Positions 2,469 to 14,416 of a DNA stretch of 32,000 nucleotides are shown here, one piece after another. The number at the start of each line of letters is the position of its first letter. The first letter of the stretch is position 1. Under the pieces are notes generated by a model. It saw nothing but the letters and a program-made list of their open reading frames with translations, was not told where the DNA came from and did no database searches. Both the position numbers and the translations under genes were made by a program. Source of the DNA: Geotalea uraniireducens Rf4 (GTDB lineage Bacteria > Desulfobacterota > Desulfuromonadia > Geobacterales > Geobacteraceae); contig NC_009483.1 in NCBI RefSeq assembly GCF_000016745.1, positions 240,001 to 272,000 on the forward strand, read 5' to 3'.

Positions 2469-4393
2469 GTGCGCCAGGCATGGCGCGTGGCGCGTAAGCG
2501 CCATCCAATTGGGTATGGTGCCTGATTGGTGACTTGGAGGTGAAAGTCCTCTTCGGACCCTGATGGTGGGAACCGATAGCTGAACAGCAAGGGTGTCCGG
2601 GGCGACCCGGAATCTGAAGGAAGCTGTAGGCAAAGTCCTGGCCCGACGAACAGGAATCGCATATGAGGCAGCCACATCTGGGCGAGAAGGCAAACAGATT
2701 CAAAGCCCGATAACCATCCAGAAAGATGTGGAAGTAGATGCGGCGGGTATATGGGATGAAGGTCACGCGCATTACCCTGGGAGGTCTGTCAACCTGCCTT
2801 GTGCTACCGGCATCGAGAGGTGCCGGGATGGGTTGGCAGAAGTCAGCAGAGGCCATACGAGTCGGAATAACCGACCGACAAAGGGCCGAACTTGAAGTAA
2901 GCGGACAGGAGCCTTGAGTTTCGATGACGACAGGAGCAGCAGAAGGCCGGGTTGGGATACCCGGCGCCAGCCCGGAGGGTAGCGGTTGGAAACCGCGAGA
3001 GAAAGGGAGAGGTGCGGCAAACGTCACGGGAAGGAAAGCAGCTCACTGGCCGGAAGCGGCAACGGGACTGATGGAGAAGATCGTCAGTCGCGGCAACATG
3101 ATGGCGGCATACTCACGGGTAATGCGCAACAAGGGAGCGCCCGGCGTCGATAACATGCCGGTAACGGCCCTGAAGGGCTACCTACAGGAGGAATGGCCGC
3201 GCATCAGAGAAGAACTGCTGACGGGAACGTATCACCCGCAACCGGTGCGGAAAGTAGAAATTCCCAAACCGGGAGGCGGCACACGGATGCTGGGAATTCC
3301 CACCGTCCTTGACCGACTCATTCAGCAGGCGGTGCATCAAGTTTTGAGCCCGCTGTTCGACCCTGGTTTCTCCATAAGTTCCCACGGGTTTCGCCCTGGA
3401 CGGAGCGCCCATCAAGCGATCAAGGCAGCTCGGAAGTATGTAGAGAGCGGCCTTAGGTGGGTGGTTGACATTGACCTTGAGAAATTTTTCGACCGAGTCC
3501 ACCACGACACCCTTATGTCGCTGGTGAAACGCAAGGTTGGAGACCGTCTGGTGCTGTCCCTTATCGACAGCTACCTTAAGGCAGGGATACTTGAAGGAGG
3601 AGTGACGTCACCCCGGTTGGAAGGCACGCCGCAAGGCGGGCCTCTCTCGCCGCTGCTGTCCAACATCCTCCTCGACGAACTGGACAAGAAACTGGAAAGA
3701 AGGGGCCATAAGTTCTGCCGCTATGCCGACGACGCAAATATCTATGTTGCAACGAGGAGAAGCGGCGAGCGTGTCATGGCCTCAATTACCGGCTACCTGT
3801 CCGAGCGGCTCAAGCTCACGGTCAACCAGGGCAAAAGCGCGGTTGACCGTCCGTGGAAAAGGTCGTTTCTGAGTTACAGCATGACCCGGCACCGCAAACC
3901 GCGGCTTACCGTGGCCAAGAAAGCGGCTGCCAGGCTCAAGGCCAACCTCAAGACGATCTTTAGGCGGGGAAGGGGTCAGAACATCCAAACCACCGTTGAA
4001 GAGACAACCCCGAAACTTAGGGGTTGGTTAAACTACTTTCGGTACGCGGAAGTAAAAGGCATCTTCGAGGAACTGGACGGATGGCTGAGACGTAAACTGC
4101 GTCGCATTCTCTGGAAGCAGTGGAAGCGCCCCAAGACGCGAGCAAAGAAACTGATGCGGCGGGGATTATCGGAGGCAACTGCATGGCGGTCGGCCACAAA
4201 CGGCCGCGGCCCCTGGTGGAATGCAGGGGCCGCGCATATGAACAAAGCTGTTCCGAAATTCTACTTCGACAAACTGGGGCTGGTATCACTCATAGACCAG
4301 CTTCACCGACTTCAACGTACTTCATGAACCGCCGTGTACGGAACCGTACGCACGGTGGTGTGGGAGGACGGCGGGAGCAATCCCGCCTCCTAC
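2469..4393 (+). mobile_element. Group II intron (bacterial, class C-like), apparently full length
   Basis: 5' GTGCG at 2469. Intron-encoded RT ORF lies in domain IV. The domain V-like hairpin at 4329-4358 is CCGCCGTG-TACG/GAAC/CGTA-(CG bulge)-CACGGTGG. The domain VI-like hairpin with a GCAA loop ends ...CCTAC at about 4393. The 3' boundary is uncertain by about 10 nt. Confidence 0.8.
3071..4327 (+). CDS. Group II intron reverse transcriptase/maturase (no endonuclease domain evident)
   Basis: The ORF is open from 2924, but homology-type sequence starts at MEKIVSRGNMMAAYSRVMRNKGAPGVDNM (ATG 3071, 418 aa). Has RT blocks including RMLGIPTVLDRLIQQA and the catalytic YADD (FCRYADDANIYV), plus a maturase X-like C-terminus (LRGWLNYFRY). 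Confidence 0.9.
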   Translation: MEKIVSRGNMMAAYSRVMRNKGAPGVDNMPVTALKGYLQEEWPRIREELLTGTYHPQPVRKVEIPKPGGGTRMLGIPTVLDRLIQQAVHQVLSPLFDPGFSISSHGFRPGRSAHQAIKAARKYVESGLRWVVDIDLEKFFDRVHHDTLMSLVKRKVGDRLVLSLIDSYLKAGILEGGVTSPRLEGTPQGGPLSPLLSNILLDELDKKLERRGHKFCRYADDANIYVATRRSGERVMASITGYLSERLKLTVNQGKSAVDRPWKRSFLSYSMTRHRKPRLTVAKKAAARLKANLKTIFRRGRGQNIQTTVEETTPKLRGWLNYFRYAEVKGIFEELDGWLRRKLRRILWKQWKRPKTRAKKLMRRGLSEATAWRSATNGRGPWWNAGAAHMNKAVPKFYFDKLGLVSLIDQLHRLQRTS

Positions 4394-4486
4394 CCGATTT
4401 AACCGCAAGGGGAATACTGGCAATACCCGGCTTGTGCGGTACAATTTTTCTACGGAGAAGTCAGGCGGTTCTCAAGGAGGACGAGG

Positions 4487-5377
4487 ATGAACATATTTCT
4501 CAGCGGCGGCACTGGCTTTGTCGGCGGCCATCTTAGGAGGGCCTTGCTGGAGAAAGGGCACCGGATCAGGCTCCTTGCCCACAAGAGGGGGGATGGTTTC
4601 GAAGATGGGATTGAGGTGGTGGAAGGGGACGTGACCCGCCCTGACACCTTTGCCGGGCAGCTCGCGGGGTGCGAAGCCGCAATCAACCTGGTGGGGATAA
4701 TCCGCGAGTTTCCGGCGCAGGGCATAACCTTCGAGAAACTTCTTGTGCAGGCCACCCGAAACATGGTCGATGCGGCAAAAGGGGCGGGAATAAAGCGTTA
4801 CCTTCACATGTCGGCCCTGGGGACCAGGCCGAACGCCACCTCCGCGTATCATAGGTCCAAGTTTCTCGCAGAGGAATATGTCCGCGCCTCCGGCCTGGAT
4901 TACACCATTTTCCGTCCGTCCATTATTTTTGGGCCGAAGGACGATTTCATCAATAAACTTGCCGGATACATCAAGGGCTATCCGGCAGTGCCGGTCATCG
5001 GCGACGGCAAATACCGGCTCCAGCCGATAGCGGCAGACGATGTGGCGCGTTGCTTTGCCATGTCTCTGGAAATGCCGGAGACGGTCGGCAAAACCTATGA
5101 AATCTGCGGCATCGACCGGCTTACCTACAATGAAATGCTCGACACCATCGGTCGTGTGCTCGGCAAGTCGCACGTGGCTAAAATCCCCAACCCGCTCGGC
5201 ATCATGAAGCTCGTGGTCCCGCTTCTGCAAGGGTTCTCGTTTTTTCCCATCACCATGGACCAGATTTTAATGCTCGTAGAGGAAAATATCTGCGACGGCG
5301 CCTGGCGTGAAACCTTCAACTTCGAGCCGCAACGGTTCGAAGAGGGGATACGCGCCTATCTGCGGCCGCACGGGTGA
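4487..5377 (+). CDS. NAD(P)-binding atypical SDR (NmrA/NDUFA9-like epimerase/dehydratase family)
   Basis: 296 aa with an AAGGAGGA RBS. N-terminal Rossmann motif FLSGGTGFVGGHL, and YxxSK (YHRSKFLAE). Confidence 0.8.
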   Translation: MNIFLSGGTGFVGGHLRRALLEKGHRIRLLAHKRGDGFEDGIEVVEGDVTRPDTFAGQLAGCEAAINLVGIIREFPAQGITFEKLLVQATRNMVDAAKGAGIKRYLHMSALGTRPNATSAYHRSKFLAEEYVRASGLDYTIFRPSIIFGPKDDFINKLAGYIKGYPAVPVIGDGKYRLQPIAADDVARCFAMSLEMPETVGKTYEICGIDRLTYNEMLDTIGRVLGKSHVAKIPNPLGIMKLVVPLLQGFSFFPITMDQILMLVEENICDGAWRETFNFEPQRFEEGIRAYLRPHG

Positions 5378-5648: not shown

Positions 5649-7346
5649 ATGGAGCTTTCAGAGAACGCCCTAAAAGTGCTGAGGGCCCGTTACCTGCTGA
5701 AGGATGAACAAGGAAGGGTCATCGAGTCTCCCAGGGAAATGTTCGGCCGCATAGCCCGCAGCGTCGCAGAGGCGGAAAAATTTTACGGCGACAGGGCATG
5801 TTACTGGGAAGAACGGTTTTATGAGCTGCTCTCTTCCCTGAGGTTCCTTCCCAATTCGCCGACGATCATGAACGCCGGGAAATCACCCGGGCAACTGGCC
5901 GCCTGCTTTGTCCTCCCTGTGGAAGACTCCATGCCGGGAATCTTCGATACCCTGAAAAACGCCGCGCTGATTCTCCAGAGCGGCGGCGGCACCGGCTTTT
6001 CCTTTTCCCGCCTACGTCCCAAGGCCGATATCGTCCGTTCCACCGGCGGCATCGCCAGCGGCCCGGTTTCCTTCATGAAGATCTACAACACGGCCACTGA
6101 CGTGATAAAGCAGGGGGGGGCGCGGCGCGGCGCAAACATGGGGATACTGCGCATCGACCATCCCGATGTGCTGGAGTTCATCCGGGTCAAGAGGGATGCA
6201 AAGGAGCTCGCCAATTTCAACATCTCGCTGGCAATAACCGATGCCTACATGGAGGCGTTGCGGGCAGACGGGGAATATCAGCTCGTCAATCCCCGGACAG
6301 GGAAGAGTGCAGGGCGTCTGCGGGCAGGGGAGGTCTTCGGCGAGATCGTTGCAAGCGCCTGGGAAACCGGGGATCCCGGACTGGTCTTCATCGACCGGCT
6401 CAACCGGGCCAATCCCACGCCTGCGGCCGGCAGTTTCGAAAGCACCAACCCCTGCGGCGAACAGCCGCTCCTCCCCTATGAGGCGTGCGTCCTCGGCTCC
6501 CTCAATCTGGCTGCCCATGTGAAGGGCGGCGTCATCGACTATGATGCCCTGGGAAGAGACGTGGCTGTTGCGGTGCGCTTCCTCGACGATACCATCGACG
6601 TTAACAGCTACCCCCTGCCGGCCATTGAACGGATGCACAAGGGGAACCGGAAGATAGGCCTGGGGGTGATGGGATGGGCGGACATGCTGGTCCTGCTCGG
6701 AATCCCCTATGACCACGAGAAGGCATTCAGGCTTGCGCGGGAGGTGATGCGCTTCATCCGGGACGCATCCAGGGAGGCCTCCTGCGCCCTGGCCAAGGAA
6801 CGTGGCGTCTTCCCCAATTTCGCCGGCTCAATTTACGATGCGCCGCACATGCCCCGGCTGCGCAACGCCACCACAACCACCATCGCCCCTACCGGGACCC
6901 TCTCCACCATCGCCGACTGCTCAAGCGGCATCGAGCCTCTCTTCGCCCTTGCCTACAAGCGTTTTGTCCTGGATAGCGAGTTGGTCGAGATTAACAAATA
7001 TTTCCTGCAAATGGCAAAAGAGCAGGGTTTTTACTCCGTTGAGCTGTTTCAGGAAGTGATGCGACGGGGGAACCTGCGCCAGGTAAAGGGAATTCCCTCC
7101 CGGGTGAAAAGGCTTTTCCGGACGGCGCTGGAAATCCTTCCCGAACACCACATCGAGATGCAGGCCGCCTTTCAGGAATATACCGACAACGCCGTCTCCA
7201 AGACCATCAACCTGCCCAACCGCGCCAAGAAAGAGGATGTGGCGCGCGCCTACCTGCTCGCCTACGAAAAAGGGTGCAAGGGGATCACCGTCTTCCGCTA
7301 CGGCGCCAGGCGCGGGACCCTGGTCAAGTTTGCCGATACGGACTGA
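5649..7346 (+). CDS. nrdJ: Class II (adenosylcobalamin-dependent) ribonucleotide reductase, short form
   Basis: 565 aa. N-terminal ALKVLRARYLLKDEQG, the NSPTIMNAG motif, the catalytic NPCGEQPL loop, and the C-terminal core motif GCKGITVFRYG. Confidence 0.9.
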   Translation: MELSENALKVLRARYLLKDEQGRVIESPREMFGRIARSVAEAEKFYGDRACYWEERFYELLSSLRFLPNSPTIMNAGKSPGQLAACFVLPVEDSMPGIFDTLKNAALILQSGGGTGFSFSRLRPKADIVRSTGGIASGPVSFMKIYNTATDVIKQGGARRGANMGILRIDHPDVLEFIRVKRDAKELANFNISLAITDAYMEALRADGEYQLVNPRTGKSAGRLRAGEVFGEIVASAWETGDPGLVFIDRLNRANPTPAAGSFESTNPCGEQPLLPYEACVLGSLNLAAHVKGGVIDYDALGRDVAVAVRFLDDTIDVNSYPLPAIERMHKGNRKIGLGVMGWADMLVLLGIPYDHEKAFRLAREVMRFIRDASREASCALAKERGVFPNFAGSIYDAPHMPRLRNATTTTIAPTGTLSTIADCSSGIEPLFALAYKRFVLDSELVEINKYFLQMAKEQGFYSVELFQEVMRRGNLRQVKGIPSRVKRLFRTALEILPEHHIEMQAAFQEYTDNAVSKTINLPNRAKKEDVARAYLLAYEKGCKGITVFRYGARRGTLVKFADTD

Positions 7347-7453
7347 TTTGCCCGCCCATCTTTTCAAGACATGCCTCCGAGAAAACATGCAGGCCGATTG
7401 TGTCGATATTAATGTACCGTGGGTGAATAAATTGTGTTTATGAGACATTTCTG

Positions 7454-7484
7454 TTGACAGTTGCTCGGCAGCGGTTGTATCAAG
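7454..7484 (+). promoter_or_regulatory. Candidate sigma70 promoter driving the riboswitch leader
   Basis: TTGACA at 7454-7459. The best -10-like hexamers are GTATCA (17-nt spacer) or TATCAA (19-nt spacer), so the -10 is weak. Confidence 0.3.
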
Positions 7485-7499
7485 TCAAATCAAGAATAT

Positions 7500-7587
7500 T
7501 TCGGAAACCGACGAAAAGGCAAAGCACGGGCAACCGTGTGACGCAAAGCTACCTGTCCAGTTGCAACTGGATAGAGGGGCTGCCGAA
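7500..7587 (+). promoter_or_regulatory. GEMM-I (cyclic-di-GMP-I class) riboswitch aptamer
   Basis: P1 is TTCGG (7500-7504) / CCGAA (7583-7587). Conserved GGCAAA, then a CACGG-GCAA-CCGTG hairpin (GNRA tetraloop), then the GACGCAAAGC signature, then a second hairpin UCCAGU-UGCA-ACUGGA and GGGGCUGCC. This matches the Vc2-type consensus as I recall it. Confidence 0.8.
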
Positions 7588-7601
7588 TAGGTGATGGAGA
7601 C

Positions 7602-7633
7602 AGGCCTACCCTTTCGGGGATAGGCTTTTTTTT
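7602..7633 (+). terminator. Intrinsic terminator forming the riboswitch expression platform
   Basis: AGGCCTACCC / GGG(GA)TAGGCT stem with a 2-nt bulge, followed by eight T at 7626-7633, located 143 nt upstream of the next ATG. Confidence 0.75.
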
Positions 7634-7775
7634 ATCCTTCAGTGGCTGCGTCGTCGCCGAAACCGGCTCCGGCCAGGCGGGGTAAGGAAAAGGTGAAAGA
7701 TGATATGGTAGGGACCTGATATAAAGATAAGTTAAGAATCTTGTTGAATCAGTCACAGCGGCTCGGGAGGGTAAG

Positions 7776-8738
7776 ATGGAAGCATTATTGCGGAATATGG
7801 TTCTGATAATGTTTGTGTGGCTGATGCTGGCGGGGGTCTGCCTTGGCAAGCAGGTCTATATGACGGATGGCGGCATCATAGATTGCGAATCCATCTGGCG
7901 GCGGGGCGGCCAGGTTATTGTCAAGGTGAACCGGGACATTGTCGTCGATTTTGAACGGAGCGAAATAGATTTAAAACGGACCTTCCCCGAAGCCAAGAAA
8001 AACCCCCATCGCGTCCTACGAAAAAAAACTGCCCGCGCTGTTGTGCCACCCAGCGCTACGGCACTGGCTGCCGCAGCGCCAACGATTCCCGTTACGGCGG
8101 CGCCTCCTGCGCCAGCAGCAAATCCGGTCCGGCCACAAGCAGCTGCTCCGGCACTCGCAGCAAAACCGGTTCCGTCTCCTGCTCCCGCCCCCGCGCCGGA
8201 GGCGAAAGAACCAGTTCAGCCTGAATCGGCTCAATCCGCTTCCGCAGATCCTTCTTTGCCCCCTGACAAAGCAGAGATGGAGCGTCGGAGTCGGCAAGCT
8301 GCGGAAATGATGGCCGAGGCAATACAGAAGAAAGATCCCGAACTGTTAAAAAAGGCCATTGAGGCTCAGAAGAGCGCCATGCCGCAAAACAGGGCAGAAA
8401 CTGCGGGAAGGAGCCTCAGATACCTGCTCCTCCTGCTGGCCGTTTCCCTCCTGATTGTTGTTTCCATGTGGGTCGTATTCGAAAAGGCAGGTCAATCAGG
8501 CGTTCTAAGCATTATACCGATTTACAACATGTACGTCCTGATGGAAATATCCGGCAAGCCCGGATGGTGGCTGGTCCTGCTGTTCATCCCCGTTGTCGGC
8601 TTTGTGTTCCTTCTCCTGGCCATGCTCGCTCTGGCCGAAAAATTTGGCAGAGGCGCATTGTTCGGCCTTGGGCTATTCTTTTTGCCGATGTTCTTTTTCC
8701 CGATGCTTGCCTTTGGCGGTTCGCAGTATGAGGGGTAA
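7776..8738 (+). CDS. Membrane protein with signal/anchor, small N-terminal domain, Pro/Ala-rich linker and C-terminal DUF5684-like multi-TM domain
   Basis: 320 aa with a GGGAGGG RBS. The C-terminal MWVVFEKAGQSGVLSIIPIYNMYVLMEISGKPGWWLVLLFIPVVGFVF...FGLGLFFLPMFFFPMLAFGGSQY matches the DUF5684 pattern as I recall it. Confidence 0.7.
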   Translation: MEALLRNMVLIMFVWLMLAGVCLGKQVYMTDGGIIDCESIWRRGGQVIVKVNRDIVVDFERSEIDLKRTFPEAKKNPHRVLRKKTARAVVPPSATALAAAAPTIPVTAAPPAPAANPVRPQAAAPALAAKPVPSPAPAPAPEAKEPVQPESAQSASADPSLPPDKAEMERRSRQAAEMMAEAIQKKDPELLKKAIEAQKSAMPQNRAETAGRSLRYLLLLLAVSLLIVVSMWVVFEKAGQSGVLSIIPIYNMYVLMEISGKPGWWLVLLFIPVVGFVFLLLAMLALAEKFGRGALFGLGLFFLPMFFFPMLAFGGSQYEG

Positions 8739-8806
8739 GAGGCAAAAGCGGGGAAACAAAATCTACGAATATATAGAAAAATAATCTCACTCCATAGGAG
8801 CCCCCA

Positions 8807-9748
8807 ATGCCCGATCCCCGCATTCAGAAAGCACTCCGCGCCCTCTCGGACAACATCGAACAAGTAATCGTCGGTAAAAAGGAGGTGATCGACCTGGCGA
8901 TCATTACCCTCCTTTGCCGCGGCCACCTCCTCATCGAGGACGTTCCAGGCCTCGGCAAGACCATGCTTGCCCGTGCCATCGCCGGCTCGTTGTCGCTGGA
9001 CTTCAAGAGGGTCCAGTTCACCCCCGACCTGCTGCCGTCGGACGTGACCGGCGTCTCCATCTACAACCAGAAGAGCGGCGAGTTCGACTTCCGTCCCGGG
9101 CCGGTCTTCACCAACCTCCTCCTGGCGGACGAGATCAACCGGGCGACCCCCCGCACCCAGTCGAGCCTCCTGGAGTCCATGGAGGAGCGGCAGGTGACTA
9201 CCGATGGCACTACCCGGCCGCTGCCGCCGGTGTTCATGGTGGTAGCCACCCAGAACCCCATCGAACTGCAGGGAACCTATCCGCTCCCAGAGGCTCAGCT
9301 CGACCGGTTTTTCATGCGGGTGAGTGTTGGCTATCCGGCCCGTAACGAGGAGGTGCGGGTGATGGAGATGCAGATCCGCGAGCACCCGATCCATGGCATC
9401 AAGCCGGTTCTCACCGAAGAACACGTGCGCTTCATGCAGAATGCGGTGACCGAGGCGCATATCGACCGCTCGCTCCTCGCCTACATCGTCGACATCGTCA
9501 ATGCTACCCGTAAGCACCCGGAACTTCAGGTCGGGGCGAGCCCGCGAGGCTCTCTCTCCCTCATGCGGGCGGCCCAGGCGATGGTTCTCTTGCGCGGCAT
9601 GGAGTTCGTGGAGCCGACGGTGATCAAGACCCTCGCCCGTCACGTCCTCACCCACCGCTTGATCGTCAAGCCCCAGGCGCGCCTGAAAGGGTTGACCGAG
9701 GCCAAGGTGGTGGAGGAGATCCTCCAGGGAATACCTGCCCCGGTATGA
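8807..9748 (+). CDS. MoxR-family AAA+ ATPase
   Basis: 313 aa. Walker A is EDVPGLGKTMLARA and Walker B is LLADEINRATPRTQSSLLE. Also has VVATQNP and the MoxR C-terminal lid (GASPRGSLSLMRAAQA). Confidence 0.92.
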   Translation: MPDPRIQKALRALSDNIEQVIVGKKEVIDLAIITLLCRGHLLIEDVPGLGKTMLARAIAGSLSLDFKRVQFTPDLLPSDVTGVSIYNQKSGEFDFRPGPVFTNLLLADEINRATPRTQSSLLESMEERQVTTDGTTRPLPPVFMVVATQNPIELQGTYPLPEAQLDRFFMRVSVGYPARNEEVRVMEMQIREHPIHGIKPVLTEEHVRFMQNAVTEAHIDRSLLAYIVDIVNATRKHPELQVGASPRGSLSLMRAAQAMVLLRGMEFVEPTVIKTLARHVLTHRLIVKPQARLKGLTEAKVVEEILQGIPAPV

Positions 9749-10983
9749 GCGGATTGGAACGCTTGCTCACCCGGCGCAACGCCCTTCTCGTCCTGGCGGC
9801 GGTATTCTTCCTCATCGCCTGGAACCGGGAGGTGAACCTCCTCTACGGCATGTTCGCCCTGGTTAGCGCCACCGTCATCGTTGCCGTCATTCTCCCCCGT
9901 TTTGCCCTCAAAGGTATCGAGGTGTGCCGCATGCTTCCGACCGCGGCATTCGAGGGGGAGGAGATCGAGGTCTGCGTCACCATGGCCAACCGGGGACGGG
10001 CCTCACGCTTCATGGTGGAGGCAGTGGATGCCGTTCCCGCCGCCGCTCCCCACGAGCGGGAGCCGCTGGTCTTTGCCGGCAGGCTGGTGGGGCGGGCGCA
10101 GCGCAATTTCAGCTACCGGCTTGTCTGCTACAAACGTGGCCTTTATACGGTCGGTCCGCTCCGGCTCCGCTCCGCCTATCCCTTGGGAATAGCCTGGTCG
10201 GAGCGGGAAGGGGACCCGTCCCTCCACACCCTCCTCGTCTATCCGTTCATGTTCGAGATCGCCTCCTTTCCCCTCATTGCGACTGGAACCCTCGTGACGA
10301 GCGGCATGGAGTCCCTGGCACGGGCGGGGGGGAGTGACGACTTCTTCGGCACGCGCGAGTACCGCCAGGGGGACAGTCTGCGCCATATCCACTGGCCCTC
10401 CACGGCACGACATGACCGGCTCATCGTCAAAGAGTTCGAGGTACGCGTTTCGGCGGAGACGACCCTTCTTCTCGATCTCCACCGTGATGCTGATGTGGGG
10501 GAGGAGCGGGAATCGACCCTGGAATACGGGGTGCGGATCGTCGCATCCGTTGCCGGCTATGCCCTGGAAAGGGGGCATACGGTGCAGCTGGCCGGCTTTG
10601 GCAAGGGGTCCCATGTGGTCCCGCCGGGGAGAGGCAGGCACCACCTGGCACAGCTGCTCGATGCGCTGGCTCGGGTGGAAAGCGATGGCCGTATTCCCTA
10701 CCATGAAGCCATCGTCCGCGCTGCCGACCTTATGCGGGACGGGAGCACGGCGGTCCTCTTTTTCTCCGGCGGCGAATCGCTCGAAGATTATCTCTATCCC
10801 CTCGGTCTTCTTCGGGCAAAACGGGTGCGGCCGGTGGCGGTCTTCTTCGACCGGGCGAGCTTCTCCGGCGAATTCTCTTTCTCCCGGCCGGCAGAAGATC
10901 CGCTCCCCCGGGAGCTCTTCGCCATGGGGGCACCGGTCTATTTCGTGGCCAGGGGCAGCGATCTGCGGGAGGTGTTTGCATGA
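9745..10983 (+). CDS. DUF58 domain protein (vWA-like fold), the usual MoxR partner
   Basis: 412 aa. ATGA overlap with the moxR-like stop. Two N-terminal TM helices. Signature REYRQGDSLRHIHWPSTARHDRLIVKEFE. Confidence 0.88.
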   Translation: MSGLERLLTRRNALLVLAAVFFLIAWNREVNLLYGMFALVSATVIVAVILPRFALKGIEVCRMLPTAAFEGEEIEVCVTMANRGRASRFMVEAVDAVPAAAPHEREPLVFAGRLVGRAQRNFSYRLVCYKRGLYTVGPLRLRSAYPLGIAWSEREGDPSLHTLLVYPFMFEIASFPLIATGTLVTSGMESLARAGGSDDFFGTREYRQGDSLRHIHWPSTARHDRLIVKEFEVRVSAETTLLLDLHRDADVGEERESTLEYGVRIVASVAGYALERGHTVQLAGFGKGSHVVPPGRGRHHLAQLLDALARVESDGRIPYHEAIVRAADLMRDGSTAVLFFSGGESLEDYLYPLGLLRAKRVRPVAVFFDRASFSGEFSFSRPAEDPLPRELFAMGAPVYFVARGSDLREVFA

Positions 10984-13271
10984 CGGAGCGCATCCAGTAC
11001 CCCCCCGTTTACCTGGGGATATACTTTCTCCTCATGACTGCCGTGACGGCTGCCATGTGCGCCGTAGCGCCGCCGCTCCAGGCTATTGCCTACACCCTCT
11101 TCTGGGGGGGTGTCTATGGCGCCGGCCTCTATTTCTGCCGCAGGTTCGGTGAGGACAACGAGGAGCGATTCCAGCAGCTCGCCAACGGCGGCGCCGGACT
11201 CGCCCTTGTTCTCTTTTTCGGCGGCTTCGCCTTTTCCGGCGTCGAGACGGGACTCATCCTGCTGCTCCTCACCCTCCAGGCGGGGCGCAACCTGGTTCTC
11301 GCCACCCGCCGCGACCTGAACTTCGCCTGCCTGATTTCCCTCGTTCTCCTCCTCTACGCAGCCGGGAAGGCAATGGAGGGGTACTTCATCGCATTTATCG
11401 TTCTCTATGCCCTGGCGGGAATGTTCACCTTCATGACCGATCACATCGATGCCCGCCTCACCCATGCCCATGGCGGGGATCGGGATCTCCTCAGCCGACG
11501 GATGAACCTGCCGGTGAAGGGAATCGGCTTGGCGCTACTCACCCTTGCACTCGCTTTCGGTATCTACCTGCTGGTGCCGCGGCCACCGTCACCCCGGGTG
11601 CAGGCATTCCCGGCATCGAGTAACTGGAACTACGATAACCGTCACTGGGAAGAAGAGGCAAAGATGCCGCGCCAGGATGGCCAAGGGCAAAACGACGATG
11701 GCAACGGGGAGTCCGACATGAGCCGCCGCCAACTGGTCGAAGCATCCCAAGGACAGGTTAACTCTTCCGAGTACGGCGGGTTTCAAAACAGGTTCGACGT
11801 CGCGGAAGTCGGGGAGTGCGCCCTCCGCCCCGATACGGTGGTTCTCTATCTCCAGGCGGACAACCCTCTCTATGCAAGGGGCAAGGTATTCGACACCTTT
11901 GACGGCCGCCGCTGGGAGGATAGCGGCGCCGGCGCCGAGAAACACTATAACCGGGATGGCCGGTTTACCTTCGGCGCAAAGCCTCAACCCGGCGATACGC
12001 TCCAGGTCTTCACCGTACGCCAGGATCTCCCGCCGTTCATCTTCGCCGCCTACCAGCCGATCCTCGTCTCCTTTCCGGGGAACGTGATCGAGACCGACGG
12101 CGCCCTTGCCCTGCGCGCTCCTGCCCGGCTCCGCAAGGGAACCATATACTCCGTAGCCTCCCACCTGGAGGAGGTGGACAAGCATCCCTGCAGCGGGGCG
12201 TCCATGGCCGGTGATGATGGGTGGACGCCGGACGGCCGTTATCTTGCCCTCTATCCCGATATCTCCGAGCGCTTGCGCGCACTTGCCAGCGACATGGCCA
12301 AGGGGGCCACGGATGACCTCGGACGGGCGAAGGCAGTGGAAGCCTACCTGCGGGATAACTTCGCCTATACCCGCGATACCATGGGGGTCAAATGGAGCGG
12401 CAATCCTGTGGAGCAGTTTCTCTTCGACCTGAAGGCCGGGCATTGCGAGTTGTTCGCCTCCTCCATGGTGGTCATCCTGCGCACCCTCCACATCCCGGCC
12501 CGGCTCGTCACCGGTTTCTACGTCAACCGCTACAACCCGGTCACCGGCTACTACGAGGTGCGGGAGTCGGACGGCCATGCCTGGGTGGAGGCATACCTGG
12601 AGCCGCACGGCTGGGTCACTTTCGAGCCGACCTCCAGCTTCGAGCTGCCGAAGCGAAGCCAGCGGCTCTTCGTTGCCACCGGGCTGGTCCGTTATCTGGG
12701 CGACCGCGCCGAAAACCTGATCCGCAAGCACCGGCATTCCTGGTGGACACAGCTTCTGCAAAAGATCTGGACGGTACTGCTTAAGCTCTGGCTGGCCCTC
12801 ATGGCCACCCTCGCAATGATGAAATTGGCCTGTCTTTCCCTCTGGTTCTGGTTTCTCCGGGTGGGGTGGATGCTTATTCTGCTACTCCTCGCCGCCGCTG
12901 GCGGGGGCTGGTACCTGTGGCGCTATTTCGAGCCGGCCTGGCGTCTCGCGCGGCTGCGCCGGGCCCGCGATGGGGACCCGCAGCGTTTTCTGCGCCTCTG
13001 CTACCGGGAGATGGAGCGGCACTTTGCCGCACGGGGAGTAGCACGGGCACCACATGTCACGCCGCTGGAGTACGAGCTACTCCTCGCCAAGCGCTTTAAA
13101 TTCCTGTCTGATCAAGTTGCTGCCATTACCCGTCTCTTCCAGCAAGCCGCCTACGGCTCCGCGCTGGTCGCTGCCGCCGATGCGGAGGAGGCATTTCGGG
13201 CGTTTGAGGAGATACAGCGGTGGAAGAGTCCAACCCATAGGGATGGGAAATTCTATGCAGAAAATGATTGA
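10980..13271 (+). CDS. Polytopic membrane transglutaminase-like protein with a DUF4129-like C-terminus
   Basis: 763 aa. ATGA overlap with the DUF58 stop. N-terminal multi-TM region. Transglutaminase core GHCELFASSMVVILRTLHIPARLVTGFY...SDGHAWVEAYL...GWVTFEPT. C-terminal TM segment plus a TPLEYELLL-type DUF4129 segment. Confidence 0.88.
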   Translation: MTERIQYPPVYLGIYFLLMTAVTAAMCAVAPPLQAIAYTLFWGGVYGAGLYFCRRFGEDNEERFQQLANGGAGLALVLFFGGFAFSGVETGLILLLLTLQAGRNLVLATRRDLNFACLISLVLLLYAAGKAMEGYFIAFIVLYALAGMFTFMTDHIDARLTHAHGGDRDLLSRRMNLPVKGIGLALLTLALAFGIYLLVPRPPSPRVQAFPASSNWNYDNRHWEEEAKMPRQDGQGQNDDGNGESDMSRRQLVEASQGQVNSSEYGGFQNRFDVAEVGECALRPDTVVLYLQADNPLYARGKVFDTFDGRRWEDSGAGAEKHYNRDGRFTFGAKPQPGDTLQVFTVRQDLPPFIFAAYQPILVSFPGNVIETDGALALRAPARLRKGTIYSVASHLEEVDKHPCSGASMAGDDGWTPDGRYLALYPDISERLRALASDMAKGATDDLGRAKAVEAYLRDNFAYTRDTMGVKWSGNPVEQFLFDLKAGHCELFASSMVVILRTLHIPARLVTGFYVNRYNPVTGYYEVRESDGHAWVEAYLEPHGWVTFEPTSSFELPKRSQRLFVATGLVRYLGDRAENLIRKHRHSWWTQLLQKIWTVLLKLWLALMATLAMMKLACLSLWFWFLRVGWMLILLLLAAAGGGWYLWRYFEPAWRLARLRRARDGDPQRFLRLCYREMERHFAARGVARAPHVTPLEYELLLAKRFKFLSDQVAAITRLFQQAAYGSALVAAADAEEAFRAFEEIQRWKSPTHRDGKFYAEND

Positions 13272-13549: not shown

Positions 13550-14416
13550 ATGAAGATACAATGCCCGAATTGTAAGATTAGCGGCCAGATCAGTGATGCT
13601 AAGGTTCCCGCGGAGGGAATCATGATGAACTGTCCGAAATGCAAGACCCCCTTCCGGGTGAAGAGGGATGCAGCATCCGGGTGGCAGAGCGGCGACTGCA
13701 TGAGCATCTGCCCGGGGTGCCATTACTCTACGTTTTCCGATGAAACGTTCGATATCTGCCCGAAATGCGGGCTCGTGGCCAGGGAATACAACGCGAAACT
13801 CCGGGACAAGAGTCAGCGTGAGGAGCGGATGCGGGAGGAGGAACGGCTCCGCCTCGAAGAGGAGAAGGCGTTCCGCAAATACGGAATAATTGAAGACGTG
13901 CCCAAAGCCCAGGCCGAAGCACCGGCCGTGGCCGACATCCCACCGGCGATCCAGTTTGCCGGCTGGACAGTCGTTGCCGTTGCGCTCCTGTTGCTGATCT
14001 TTGGCTGCAAGGGGTTGTACGCCTTCTACGCCGTGAGCAGCATGGAAGCTGCCGATCCGGCAACCCTCGAAGAGCCGCGTACGACGGCGGCGCTTTTTCT
14101 CGAATTCGGCCTTTTGCCTGCGTTTCAGATTGTGTTCGGTGCGGTTGCGTTGGTCGCCGGGTCACAGTTCCTGAAACTTCGCGCCTGGGCGCGCAATGCC
14201 TTGGAATGGGCTGCCTGGGCCGGGCTGGTATTCATGAGCGGTTATGAGCTTTTCAACCTCGTGGCCTGGATCAGGCGGTCATCGAGTACTCCCACCATCT
14301 CTTATTATGCGGTCGGCATCTTGAGCGCACTCGGCATGCTGGCGGTCTGGATCGCGCCACTCCTCTTCCTTATCCGGTTTCTGCGCGGGAGCACGGTAAA
14401 AAAAGCCGTTGTGTAA
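13550..14416 (+). CDS. Double zinc-ribbon (MJ0042-type) membrane protein
   Basis: 288 aa. MKIQCPNCK...NCPKCKTPFRV matches the MJ0042-family finger. A second CPGC...CPKCG ribbon follows, then a charged REEERMREEERLRLEEEK helix and about four C-terminal TM helices. Confidence 0.75.
   Translation: MKIQCPNCKISGQISDAKVPAEGIMMNCPKCKTPFRVKRDAASGWQSGDCMSICPGCHYSTFSDETFDICPKCGLVAREYNAKLRDKSQREERMREEERLRLEEEKAFRKYGIIEDVPKAQAEAPAVADIPPAIQFAGWTVVAVALLLLIFGCKGLYAFYAVSSMEAADPATLEEPRTTAALFLEFGLLPAFQIVFGAVALVAGSQFLKLRAWARNALEWAAWAGLVFMSGYELFNLVAWIRRSSSTPTISYYAVGILSALGMLAVWIAPLLFLIRFLRGSTVKKAVV

What the first reader, a model, noticed from the sequence alone, without database searches (positions are those of the whole stretch)
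7454..7633. GEMM-I cyclic-dinucleotide riboswitch with its own terminator, hidden under a spurious antisense ORF
The 430-nt gap after nrdJ contains a TTGACA promoter-like box. It is followed by a sequence matching the GEMM-I architecture:
- a P1 helix (TTCGG/CCGAA)
- GGCAAA
- a hairpin capped by a GNRA (GCAA) tetraloop
- the near-invariant GACGCAAAGC
- a second hairpin
- GGGGCUGCC

A 10-bp bulged stem plus eight U follows immediately, forming the expression platform. The only track ORF here (7490..7849, minus strand) is non-coding-looking.

The base immediately 5' of CAAA is G. By my recollection of Vc2 numbering this is G20, which predicts c-di-GMP selectivity. The A20 variant (3'3'-cGAMP selectivity) is common in Geobacter. 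That assignment needs a proper alignment.
Basis: partly seen in the sequence, partly recalled or inferred. Interest (0 to 1): 0.7.

Follow-up and report, generated by a model that had tools for sequence, protein, structure and literature searches.

The report
Ordinary c-di-GMP riboswitch with its terminator

Summary
Confirmed and ordinary.

- **Identity.** Rfam RF01051 (c-di-GMP-I) matches window 7508-7587 (+) over the full model, at 69 bits (gathering score 35, E 1e-11). It is the only RNA-family hit in the intergenic region.
- **Organism.** The flanking proteins are 100% identical to Geotalea uraniireducens Rf4 proteins (ABQ24401 NrdJ, ABQ24402 DUF5684).
- **Ligand.** The ligand-contact positions are G20 (7518), A47 (7545) and C92 (7583). 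This is the c-di-GMP type, not the A20 cGAMP type.
- **Flanking signals.** A conserved TTGACA -35 box (7454-7459) precedes the aptamer. A bulged 10-pair hairpin (7603-7626) plus U8 (7626-7633) follows it after a 15-nt spacer.
- **Conservation.** Promoter, aptamer and terminator are conserved as one unit in every Geotalea-like relative with upstream sequence available. The terminator shows a U-A / U.G / C-G covariation series.
- **Regulated genes.** The unit always lies ahead of DUF5684 (plus MoxR, DUF58 and a TgpA transglutaminase in three of the four ortholog types).
- **Polarity.** Aptamer and terminator do not overlap, unlike the ON-type cGAMP switch found in locus L021. I infer a Cd1-like OFF switch, but the anti-terminator is weak and not statistically supported (about 50% confidence).
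- **Other points.** The antisense ORF is spurious.

The parts
7454..7483 (+). Promoter-like region: -35 TTGACA (7454-7459) and a weak -10 candidate TATCAA (7478-7483, 18-nt spacer). The predicted transcription start is near 7490.
   Evidence: TTGACA and the following TTGTAT are conserved in orthologs L001, L084 and L082. Paralogous GEMM-I units also have TTGAC(A/T) at a similar distance. The consensus scan did not call a promoter, because the -10 is poor.
7499..7504 (+). An identical hexamer recurs in the terminator loop at 7612-7617.
   Evidence: Three of its bases are deleted in the close relative L080/L081, and it is absent from L001 and L084. It can pair either with 7512-7516 locally or with 7583-7587.
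7508..7587 (+). GEMM-I (c-di-GMP-I) aptamer. It contains G20 = 7518 and the first hairpin 7519-7544 (GC/GC base, AAA internal loop, 6-bp stem, GCAA loop at 7530-7533). A47 equivalent = 7545. The second hairpin is 7547-7581 with bulged A7551 and AG 7573-7574. C92 equivalent = 7583.
   Evidence: Rfam RF01051, 69 bits, full model. Pair counts are on alignment A3. The position-20 mapping is supported by the A/G dimorphism at this column in L015 and L021.
7507..7513 (+). Candidate closing-helix (P1) 5' strand: ACC (7507-7509) and CG (7512-7513). It would pair with GGU (7590-7592) and CG (7584-7585).
   Evidence: Inferred by homology with paralogs that have an outer helix, an AA bulge and CG:CG next to the junction (for example L087 CCAC-CG / CG-AA-GUGG), and with L001 AUUGAC:GUCGAU. 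The helix is weak in the window and not proven.
7583..7592 (+). 3' tail of the aptamer (CCGAAUAGGU), the candidate anti-terminator strand. It can pair with 7604-7617 (GCCUA...UUCGG, or UACC..UUCGG in a second register).
   Evidence: This pairing is the minimum-free-energy structure for transcripts truncated at about 7608-7624. The hairpin has -10 to -11.3 kcal/mol against -12.9 for the terminator, and falls to -5.7 if CCGAA is blocked. It is not better than shuffled spacers (p=0.13).
7603..7633 (+). Intrinsic terminator: hairpin 7603-7626 (GGCCUACCC / UUUC / GGGGAUAGGC, with bulged A7620; the first U of the run closes the hairpin) followed by U8 at 7626-7633.
   Evidence: It is conserved in orthologs, with covariation at 7607/7622: U-A in window and L080, U.G in L082, C-G in L001 and L084.
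7634..7775 (+). Remaining leader. The stretch from about 7674 to 7690 is a remnant of the 3' end of a Zn-ribbon/TPR gene that relatives carry between the riboswitch and DUF5684. The Shine-Dalgarno sequence GGGAGGG is at 7765-7771.
   Evidence: By blastn, window 7383-7636 matches L082 940-1189 (86.7%) and window 7674-7793 matches L083 641-764 (86.4%).
7776..13271 (+). Presumed regulated operon: DUF5684 membrane protein (7776-8738), MoxR AAA+ ATPase (8807-9748), DUF58 (9745-10983), TgpA-like transglutaminase (10980-13271).
   Evidence: Pfam assignments are. The gene order is the same in L080, L082 and L090. In G. toluenoxydans (L001) the riboswitch precedes DUF5684 without the MoxR genes.
7490..7849 (-). 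Antisense ORF (119 aa, TTG start), judged spurious.
   Evidence: It has no Pfam or NCBIfam match. It overlaps the structured RNA and the start of the conserved + strand gene. GenBank accessions ABQ24401 and ABQ24402 for the flanking genes are consecutive.

Best explanation
Window 7454-7633 is a complete transcriptional riboswitch unit of Geotalea uraniireducens Rf4. A sigma-70-type promoter starts a leader RNA near 7490. Nucleotides 7508-7587 fold into a GEMM-I aptamer that binds c-di-GMP at the three-helix junction, using G7518 (= G20), A7545 (= A47) and C7583 (= C92). A separate intrinsic terminator (7603-7633) then decides whether RNA polymerase continues into the DUF5684-MoxR-DUF58-TgpA operon.

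What is shown: the family membership, the junction nucleotides, the terminator, and the conservation of the whole unit ahead of this operon.

What is inferred: the polarity. The two aptamer hairpins and the terminator can all form at once, so the ligand cannot block the terminator by direct competition. The only ligand-dependent segment is the 3' tail CCGAAUAGGU. It is complementary to the terminator's 5' arm and loop. I therefore propose a Cd1-like OFF switch. Without c-di-GMP the tail forms an anti-terminator and transcription reads through. With c-di-GMP, C7583 and the neighbouring CG are locked into the junction and closing helix, the terminator forms, and the operon is shut off. I put the OFF polarity at about 0.5. 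The confidence below is for the identity and the ligand.
For: - **Family.** Rfam RF01051 matches at 69 bits, E 1e-11, over the full model. Covariation across 14 related aptamers gives 93.2% of cells paired against 34-42% for slid partners, with 8 pairs changed on both sides and 0 of 500 shuffles reaching the observed value.
- **Organism.** The flanking proteins are identical to G. uraniireducens Rf4 ABQ24401 and ABQ24402.
- **Ligand.** G lies at model position 11, and C at both positions 83 and 84. The same column is A in the cGAMP-type aptamers L015 and L021. The literature identifies G20 and C92 as the contacts and shows that G20 versus A20 sets c-di-GMP versus cGAMP selectivity, including an A20G swap in Gmet_0970 (PMC6140456; PMC6456294).
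- **Terminator.** The hairpin has -12.9 kcal/mol and is followed by U8. It covaries in orthologs.
- **Conserved unit.** It is present in window, L090, L080/L081, L082, L001 and L084, always ahead of the DUF5684 gene or operon.
- **Polarity.** Aptamer and terminator coexist in the minimum-free-energy fold. By contrast, in the A20-type switch in L021 the terminator's 5' arm is the aptamer's 3' strand. PMC9262584 describes exactly this coexistence as the Cd1 OFF design, and overlap as the pilM ON design.
- **Anti-terminator.** The hairpin 7583-7617 is the best structure for truncated transcripts. It is nearly as stable as the terminator and loses 4-6 kcal/mol if CCGAA is blocked, in 4 of 5 ortholog types.
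Against: - No ligand-binding or termination experiment exists for this element.
- The anti-terminator is no better than shuffled spacers (p 0.13-0.27 in orthologs; Fisher p 0.59 over paralogous units). It is essentially absent in G. toluenoxydans L001 (-2.1 kcal/mol).
- The closing helix P1 is weak and ambiguous in the window.
- The -10 element is poor, and no promoter or + strand terminator was called by the consensus scan.
- My mapping of C92 to model position 83 rests partly on recollected Vc2 numbering. The window has C at both candidate positions, so the call is unaffected.
Confidence: 0.88

Rival explanations
1. Same c-di-GMP riboswitch, but an ON switch. Ligand binding would suppress the terminator and induce the operon, as in most characterised Geobacter GEMM-I/Ib switches.
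For: Weinberg 2007 notes that many delta-proteobacterial GEMM terminators compete with the aptamer, which predicts ON. All GEMM-Ib-controlled genes in G. sulfurreducens fall when cGAMP synthesis is deleted (PMC6456294). My anti-terminator is statistically unsupported.
Against: In this unit the terminator (7603-7626) shares no nucleotides with the aptamer or its candidate P1 (which ends at 7592), and both form together in the minimum-free-energy fold. The overlap seen in the ON-type L021 switch is absent. No structure was found by which the bound aptamer could prevent the hairpin.
Confidence: 0.25
2. A GEMM-Ib riboswitch that is selective for 3'3'-cGAMP or responds to both ligands, as is common in Geobacter.
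For: The organism belongs to Geobacteraceae, where many GEMM-I aptamers sense cGAMP (PMC6456294, PMC8835794). A20-type aptamers occur in related loci L015 and L021.
Against: Position 20 is G (7518), not A. G20 Vc2 discriminates strongly against cGAMP, and A20G converts Gmet_0970 to c-di-GMP selectivity. All orthologs of this unit keep G.
Confidence: 0.06
3. A decayed or non-regulatory aptamer next to an ordinary terminator that simply ends nrdJ transcription. Alternatively, the unit could produce a stand-alone small RNA of about 145 nt.
For: No terminator is predicted between the nrdJ stop and the riboswitch, so nrdJ read-through would end at 7633. The 140-nt leader after the terminator is partly a gene remnant. 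P1 is weak.
Against: The window's Rfam score is the highest in its subfamily (69 bits against 48-64). All junction nucleotides are intact. The promoter-aptamer-terminator unit is conserved ahead of the DUF5684 operon even where the upstream gene is not nrdJ (L001, L084, L082: SDR epimerase).
Confidence: 0.05
4. The minus-strand ORF 7490..7849 is a real protein-coding gene, and the RNA motif is incidental.
For: An open frame of 119 codons exists.
Against: It has a TTG start and no Pfam or NCBIfam match. It overlaps the N-terminus of a conserved + strand gene and a high-scoring structured RNA. It is not annotated in GenBank, where the flanking accessions are consecutive.
Confidence: 0.01

Closest known systems
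GEMM-I / c-di-GMP-I riboswitch (Rfam RF01051; Vc2 of Vibrio cholerae as the structural reference)
   Same: It matches the full covariance model. It has two hairpins joined by AAA and the GACGCAAAGC core. It has a GYRA (GCAA) tetraloop with bulged A residues instead of a tetraloop receptor, one of the variants described by Weinberg 2007. It has G20, A47 and C92. It lies in the 5' UTR of a membrane or envelope operon.
   Different: Vc2 is described as a translational switch with a well-defined P1. Here the platform is a transcription terminator, and the closing helix is short and interrupted.
Cd1 c-di-GMP riboswitch of Clostridioides difficile (transcriptional OFF switch; PMC9262584)
   Same: The aptamer is followed by a separate terminator that can coexist with it. 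P1 is weak or absent. The proposed anti-terminator is formed by the aptamer's 3' strand and the terminator's 5' arm.
   Different: The organism and the regulated genes differ (flagellar operon in C. difficile). For the window the OFF behaviour is only inferred, and the anti-terminator is shorter.
GEMM-Ib 3'3'-cGAMP riboswitches of Geobacter (Gs1761/pgcA, Gmet_0970/pilM)
   Same: The fold and family are the same, the host family is the same, and the expression platform is terminator-based.
   Different: Those have A at position 20, and their terminator overlaps the aptamer's 3' strand (ON), as seen in locus L021. The window has G20 and a non-overlapping terminator.

Membership tests
GEMM-I / c-di-GMP-I riboswitch (RF01051) | Covariance-model score above the curated gathering threshold | tested here: met
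   69.0 bits against 35, E 9.8e-12, model positions 1-87 of 87. It is the only hit in 7300-7800 at E<=1.
GEMM-I / c-di-GMP-I riboswitch (RF01051) | [quoted passage not shown] | tested here: met
   GC/GC 7519-20 with 7543-44; AAA 7521-23; GCACGG/CCGUGU; GCAA loop 7530-33. In related sequences 100% of cells are paired, and 5 of 6 stem pairs show changes on both sides.
GEMM-I / c-di-GMP-I riboswitch (RF01051) | AAA linker and a second hairpin (with bulged A residues instead of a receptor when the loop is GYRA) | tested here: met
   AAA at 7545-7547 (the third A opens the second hairpin by pairing with U7581). The hairpin is 7547-7581 with bulged A7551 and AG 7573-74. 88% of cells are paired across relatives. 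The feature is described in Weinberg 2007.
GEMM-I / c-di-GMP-I riboswitch (RF01051) | Ligand-contact nucleotides G20, A47 and C92 | tested here: met
   G7518, A7545 and C7583 by alignment to the model. The contacts are defined in PMC6140456. The mapping of position 20 is confirmed by A at this column in the cGAMP-type aptamers L015 and L021. The C92 register rests partly on recollection, but positions 83 and 84 are both C.
GEMM-I / c-di-GMP-I riboswitch (RF01051) | 5' regulatory position relative to a gene | tested here: met
   It lies 189 nt upstream of the DUF5684 ATG on the same strand. The arrangement is conserved in orthologs.
GEMM-I / c-di-GMP-I riboswitch (RF01051) | Binds c-di-GMP and changes gene expression | not testable with these tools
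   This needs in-line probing or ITC and transcription or reporter assays.
GEMM-Ib (3'3'-cGAMP) subclass | Adenine at position 20 | tested here: not met
   Position 20 (7518) is G in the window and in all orthologs.
Rho-independent (intrinsic) terminator | GC-rich hairpin immediately followed by a U tract | tested here: met
   A 10-pair hairpin at 7603-7626, -12.9 kcal/mol, then U8. It covaries in orthologs. The strict consensus scan missed it because of the bulge.
Cd1-type transcriptional OFF design | Aptamer and terminator are compatible, and an alternative anti-terminator uses the aptamer's 3' strand | tested here: inconclusive
   Compatibility is shown. An anti-terminator exists and is nearly as stable as the terminator, but it is not distinguishable from shuffled controls and is missing in L001.

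The most novel reading that the evidence does not exclude
The riboswitch is a c-di-GMP OFF switch that shuts down a DUF5684-MoxR-DUF58-transglutaminase envelope operon when c-di-GMP is high. That would give the first regulatory handle on this widespread but uncharacterised MoxR/DUF58/TgpA gene set. It would also show that Geobacteraceae run two opposite terminator designs on one aptamer scaffold: separate terminator for OFF with c-di-GMP, and overlapping terminator for ON with cGAMP.
Probability: 0.4. Interest if true: 0.3.

Novelty: already known. Interest (0 to 1): 0.15.

Why it matters
It matters little beyond correct annotation. GEMM-I riboswitches were described in 2007-2008, are especially abundant in Geobacter and its relatives (Weinberg 2007), and are found routinely by Rfam-based pipelines.

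The modest added value is threefold:
1. The element is assigned to the c-di-GMP (G20) type rather than the cGAMP type.
2. The target operon is identified as DUF5684 with MoxR, DUF58 and TgpA.
3. Its terminator does not overlap the aptamer, which points to OFF logic, the opposite of the well-studied Geobacter cGAMP switches.

Tried and rejected
I rejected it as the functional closing helix. Three of its bases are deleted in the close relative L080/L081, which still scores 68 bits. It is absent in L001 and L084. It would also pair C7583, which must contact the ligand.
2. **A premature conclusion, corrected.** I first concluded that the riboswitch was missing from close relatives L082 and L083. 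L082 in fact has it 1.9 kb further upstream, ahead of an extra Zn-ribbon/TPR gene. The L083 contig starts inside that gene, so it is uninformative.
3. **Anti-terminator through the aptamer's 3' tail.** It is energetically plausible but not better than shuffled spacers.
4. **Anti-terminator through the 5' junction strand (CGAAAAGG) pairing with the terminator's inner arm and loop.** This is significant in paralogs L086, L087 and L091 (p<=0.02) but not in the window (p about 0.15-0.2).
5. **UUCG-type loops.** I checked whether they are simply common in local terminators. They occur in 15 of 99 terminator-like hairpins in 374 kb, and most of those are the GEMM-associated ones. Shared ancestry of the units prevents treating this as independent evidence.
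6. **Literature.** The primary papers (Sudarsan 2008; Smith 2009; Kulshina 2009; Kellenberger 2015; Nelson 2015; Ren 2015) are not held in the library. The Weinberg 2007 supplement is not held either.
7. **Promoter and terminator consensus scan.** It gave nothing on the + strand.

Full report
**Observation**

The intergenic region between nrdJ (5649-7346, + strand; Pfam and NCBIfam) and the next + strand gene (ATG at 7776) is 429 nt.

A scan of the whole window against Rfam 15 gives a full-length match to RF01051 (c-di-GMP-I, that is GEMM-I) at 7508-7587 (+). The score is 69.0 bits against a gathering score of 35, with E 9.8e-12. A permissive scan of 7300-7800 finds nothing else.

**Source and context**

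The downstream protein (320 aa: signal peptide, Pro/Ala-rich linker, C-terminal DUF5684 membrane domain) is 100% identical to a Geotalea uraniireducens protein on a 5.14-Mb contig. An exact look-up names it ABQ24402 of strain Rf4, and names NrdJ as ABQ24401. The two accessions are consecutive, so GenBank has no CDS between them.

Three genes follow DUF5684: a MoxR AAA+ ATPase (8807-9748), a DUF58 protein (9745-10983) and a TgpA-like transglutaminase (10980-13271). The gaps are short or the genes overlap. The same order occurs in relatives.

**Anatomy**

From the Rfam alignment:
- The junction G (Vc2 G20) is 7518.
- G7519-C7544 and C7520-G7543 form the base of the first hairpin.
- AAA 7521-7523 is the internal loop. 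GCACGG/CCGUGU is the stem, capped by GCAA (7530-7533).
- GAC 7540-7542 follows.
- A7545 is the equivalent of the intercalating A47.
- The second hairpin spans 7547-7581, with bulged A7551 and AG 7573-7574.
- G7582 and C7583 (= C92) follow, then CGAA.

A GYRA loop with bulged adenines instead of a tetraloop receptor is a variant already described for GEMM (PMC1950547).

On an alignment of 14 related aptamers from orthologous and paralogous loci, 93.2% of cells form standard pairs, against 34-42% when partners are slid by 1-3 columns. Eight pairs show changes on both sides, and none of 500 shuffles reaches the observed values.

**Ligand**

PMC6140456 states that G20 recognises one guanine of c-di-GMP by its Hoogsteen edge and that C92 pairs with the other. 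It also states that cGAMP riboswitches have A at position 20, and that wild-type Vc2 discriminates against cGAMP. PMC6456294 reports that an A20G change converts the Gmet_0970 riboswitch from cGAMP to c-di-GMP selectivity.

That base is paired. The junction base is 7518.

Data here support this mapping. In two A-type aptamers found in related loci (L015 AAG-A-GCAAAG; L021 AAU-A-CUAAAC), the A sits in the column of 7518. The next two bases covary with their partners.

My placement of C92 at model position 83 rests partly on recollected Vc2 numbering (A47 as the first A after GACGC; the C44-G83 tertiary pair). The window has C at both 83 and 84, so the call does not depend on it.

**Promoter and terminator**

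TTGACA (7454-7459) and the following TTGTAT are conserved in G. toluenoxydans-like orthologs and in L082. Paralogous GEMM-I units also carry TTGAC(A/T) at a similar distance. The -10 is weak (TATCAA, 7478-7483), and the consensus scan called no promoter. The transcription start is therefore inferred to lie near 7490.

The hairpin 7603-7626 has 10 pairs, one bulged A and -12.9 kcal/mol. It is followed by U8 (7626-7633). It is conserved in orthologs, with a covariation series at 7607/7622: U-A in the window and L080, U.G in L082, C-G in L001 and L084.

**Conservation of the unit**

A scan of one genome per species with a profile of the DUF5684 protein returned 79 loci. Rfam scans, contig look-ups and a metagenome pattern scan then located the orthologous promoter-aptamer-terminator unit in these loci:
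- G. toluenoxydans (L001) and a close relative (L084).
- Near-identical metagenome contigs (L090, L080/L081).
- L082.

I first misread L082 as lacking the unit. A terminator survey exposed a look-alike hairpin there. Rfam then confirmed a 63-bit aptamer at L082:1062-1141, upstream of a Zn-ribbon/TPR gene that precedes DUF5684-MoxR-DUF58-TgpA.

By blastn, window 7383-7636 matches that unit (86.7%). Window 7674-7793 matches the end of the TPR gene plus the intergenic region in L083. The 140-nt stretch between the window's terminator and the ATG is therefore largely what remains after that gene was lost.

More distant Geobacteraceae orthologs (62% identity or less) have no GEMM-I within 6 kb upstream. 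The upstream neighbour varies: nrdJ in the window, an SDR epimerase in L001, L084 and L082. The riboswitch stays with the DUF5684 operon throughout.

**Mechanism**

The two aptamer hairpins are very stable. They and the terminator form together in the minimum-free-energy structure (z = -4.75).

This contrasts with the A20-type switch in L021. There the terminator's 5' arm is the aptamer's own 3' strand (AGCCGGGUUGCCGA ... UCGGUGCCGGCU-U8). That is the ON design described by Weinberg 2007 and for pilM (PMC9262584). The same paper describes Cd1, an OFF switch, as the case where aptamer and terminator coexist and compete with an anti-terminator built from the aptamer's 3' strand and the terminator's 5' strand. 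It also reports that P2 and P3 are pre-formed while P1 forms only with ligand.

In the window, the only ligand-dependent segment near the terminator is CCGAAUAGGU (7583-7592). It can pair with GCCUA...UUCGG (7604-7617), or in a second register with UACC..UUCGG.
- This hairpin is the best structure for transcripts ending between about 7608 and 7624.
- It has -10 to -11.3 kcal/mol, against -12.9 for the terminator core.
- It drops to -5.7 if CCGAA is unavailable.
- Similar numbers hold for L080, L082 and L084.

The caveats are serious:
- The hairpin is no better than shuffled spacers (p 0.13-0.27).
- It is missing in L001.
- It is not supported across paralogous units (Fisher p 0.59).
- An alternative anti-terminator uses the 5' junction strand. 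It is significant in three paralogs but not here.

I therefore commit to OFF (c-di-GMP promotes termination) at about 0.5. I give ON about 0.25 and leave the rest to no or other control.

UUCGG (7500-7504) and CCGAA (7583-7587) are complementary. However, L080/L081 lacks three of the five 5' bases yet keeps a 68-bit aptamer. L001 and L084 have no equivalent. The pairing would also occupy C7583.

Paralogs show a different, recurrent closing helix: an outer helix, an AA bulge, and CG:CG next to the junction (for example L087). L001 has AUUGAC:GUCGAU. The homologous pairing in the window is ACC(7507-9)...CG(7512-13) with CG(7584-85)...GGU(7590-92). It is weak.

**Antisense ORF**

The ORF 7490..7849 (-) has a TTG start and no family match. 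It overlaps the structured RNA and the conserved N-terminus of the + strand gene, and it is not in GenBank. It is spurious.

**Comparison and verdict**

The element meets every testable defining feature of GEMM-I and fails the defining feature of GEMM-Ib (A20). The class has been known since 2007-2008 and is especially common in Geobacter and its relatives. From my own recollection, G. uraniireducens was noted early as carrying about 30 copies; I could not retrieve that paper.

The finding is correct, and I classify it as already known; I could not check the RefSeq record or the Rfam full alignment for this exact instance. What is mildly informative is the c-di-GMP (not cGAMP) type, the target operon, and the non-overlapping terminator that suggests OFF logic.

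Noticed in passing
window 2596-4398 (+); ORF 2924-4327: A complete group II intron lies between a YchJ-like gene (1936-2418) and an SDR epimerase gene (4487-5377). It matches Rfam RF02001 at 144 bits, RF01998 at 62 bits and RF00029 at 46 bits, and has a reverse-transcriptase/maturase ORF (TIGR04416, E 4e-122). It sits just downstream of a terminator-like hairpin GCCCGCGAAAGCGGGC plus a U-run ending near 2458. A very similar intron occurs in a Desulfuromonadaceae MAG (L005:2576-4388).
   Followed up: partly
L086:780-857, L087:504-578(-), L088:2803-2880, L089:3373-3451, L091:2606-2689: Paralogous GEMM-I aptamers from metagenomes (51-64 bits) have U (L086-L089) or A (L091) at model position 83, where the window has C. 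By my mapping this is the ligand-pairing C92 position, with G20 and A47 kept. These could be specificity variants, or the register could be shifted by one. Not resolved.
   Followed up: partly
L021:7358-7470 and L015:12272-12440: A20-type (cGAMP-type) GEMM-I aptamers lie near DUF5684 orthologs in other Geobacteraceae. The L021 one lies about 500 nt downstream of the DUF5684 gene and resembles the Gs1761 sequence as I recall it. Its terminator overlaps the aptamer's 3' strand (ON design).
   Followed up: partly
window 7637-7690 versus L082:1248-2927 and L083:2-652: Relatives carry a 559-aa Zn-ribbon/TPR gene between the riboswitch terminator and DUF5684. The window keeps only a remnant of its 3' end (around 7674-7690). 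It has a shorter Zn-ribbon protein gene at 13550-14416, downstream of TgpA.
   Followed up: partly
Terminators following GEMM-I aptamers in window, L080, L081, L082, L086, L087, L088, L090, L091, L093, L015: GEMM-associated terminators share a CC(C)-UUUCGG/UUCG-GG(G) inner hairpin that is rare in other terminator-like hairpins of the same loci (15 of 99 overall, mostly the GEMM-associated ones). This motif is complementary to the conserved aptamer strands CCGAA and CGAAAAGG. It could reflect a shared anti-terminator logic or simply common descent of duplicated units.
   Followed up: partly
window 7347-7453: No terminator is predicted between the nrdJ stop codon and the riboswitch promoter. nrdJ transcripts may therefore read into the riboswitch and end at its terminator.
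   Followed up: no
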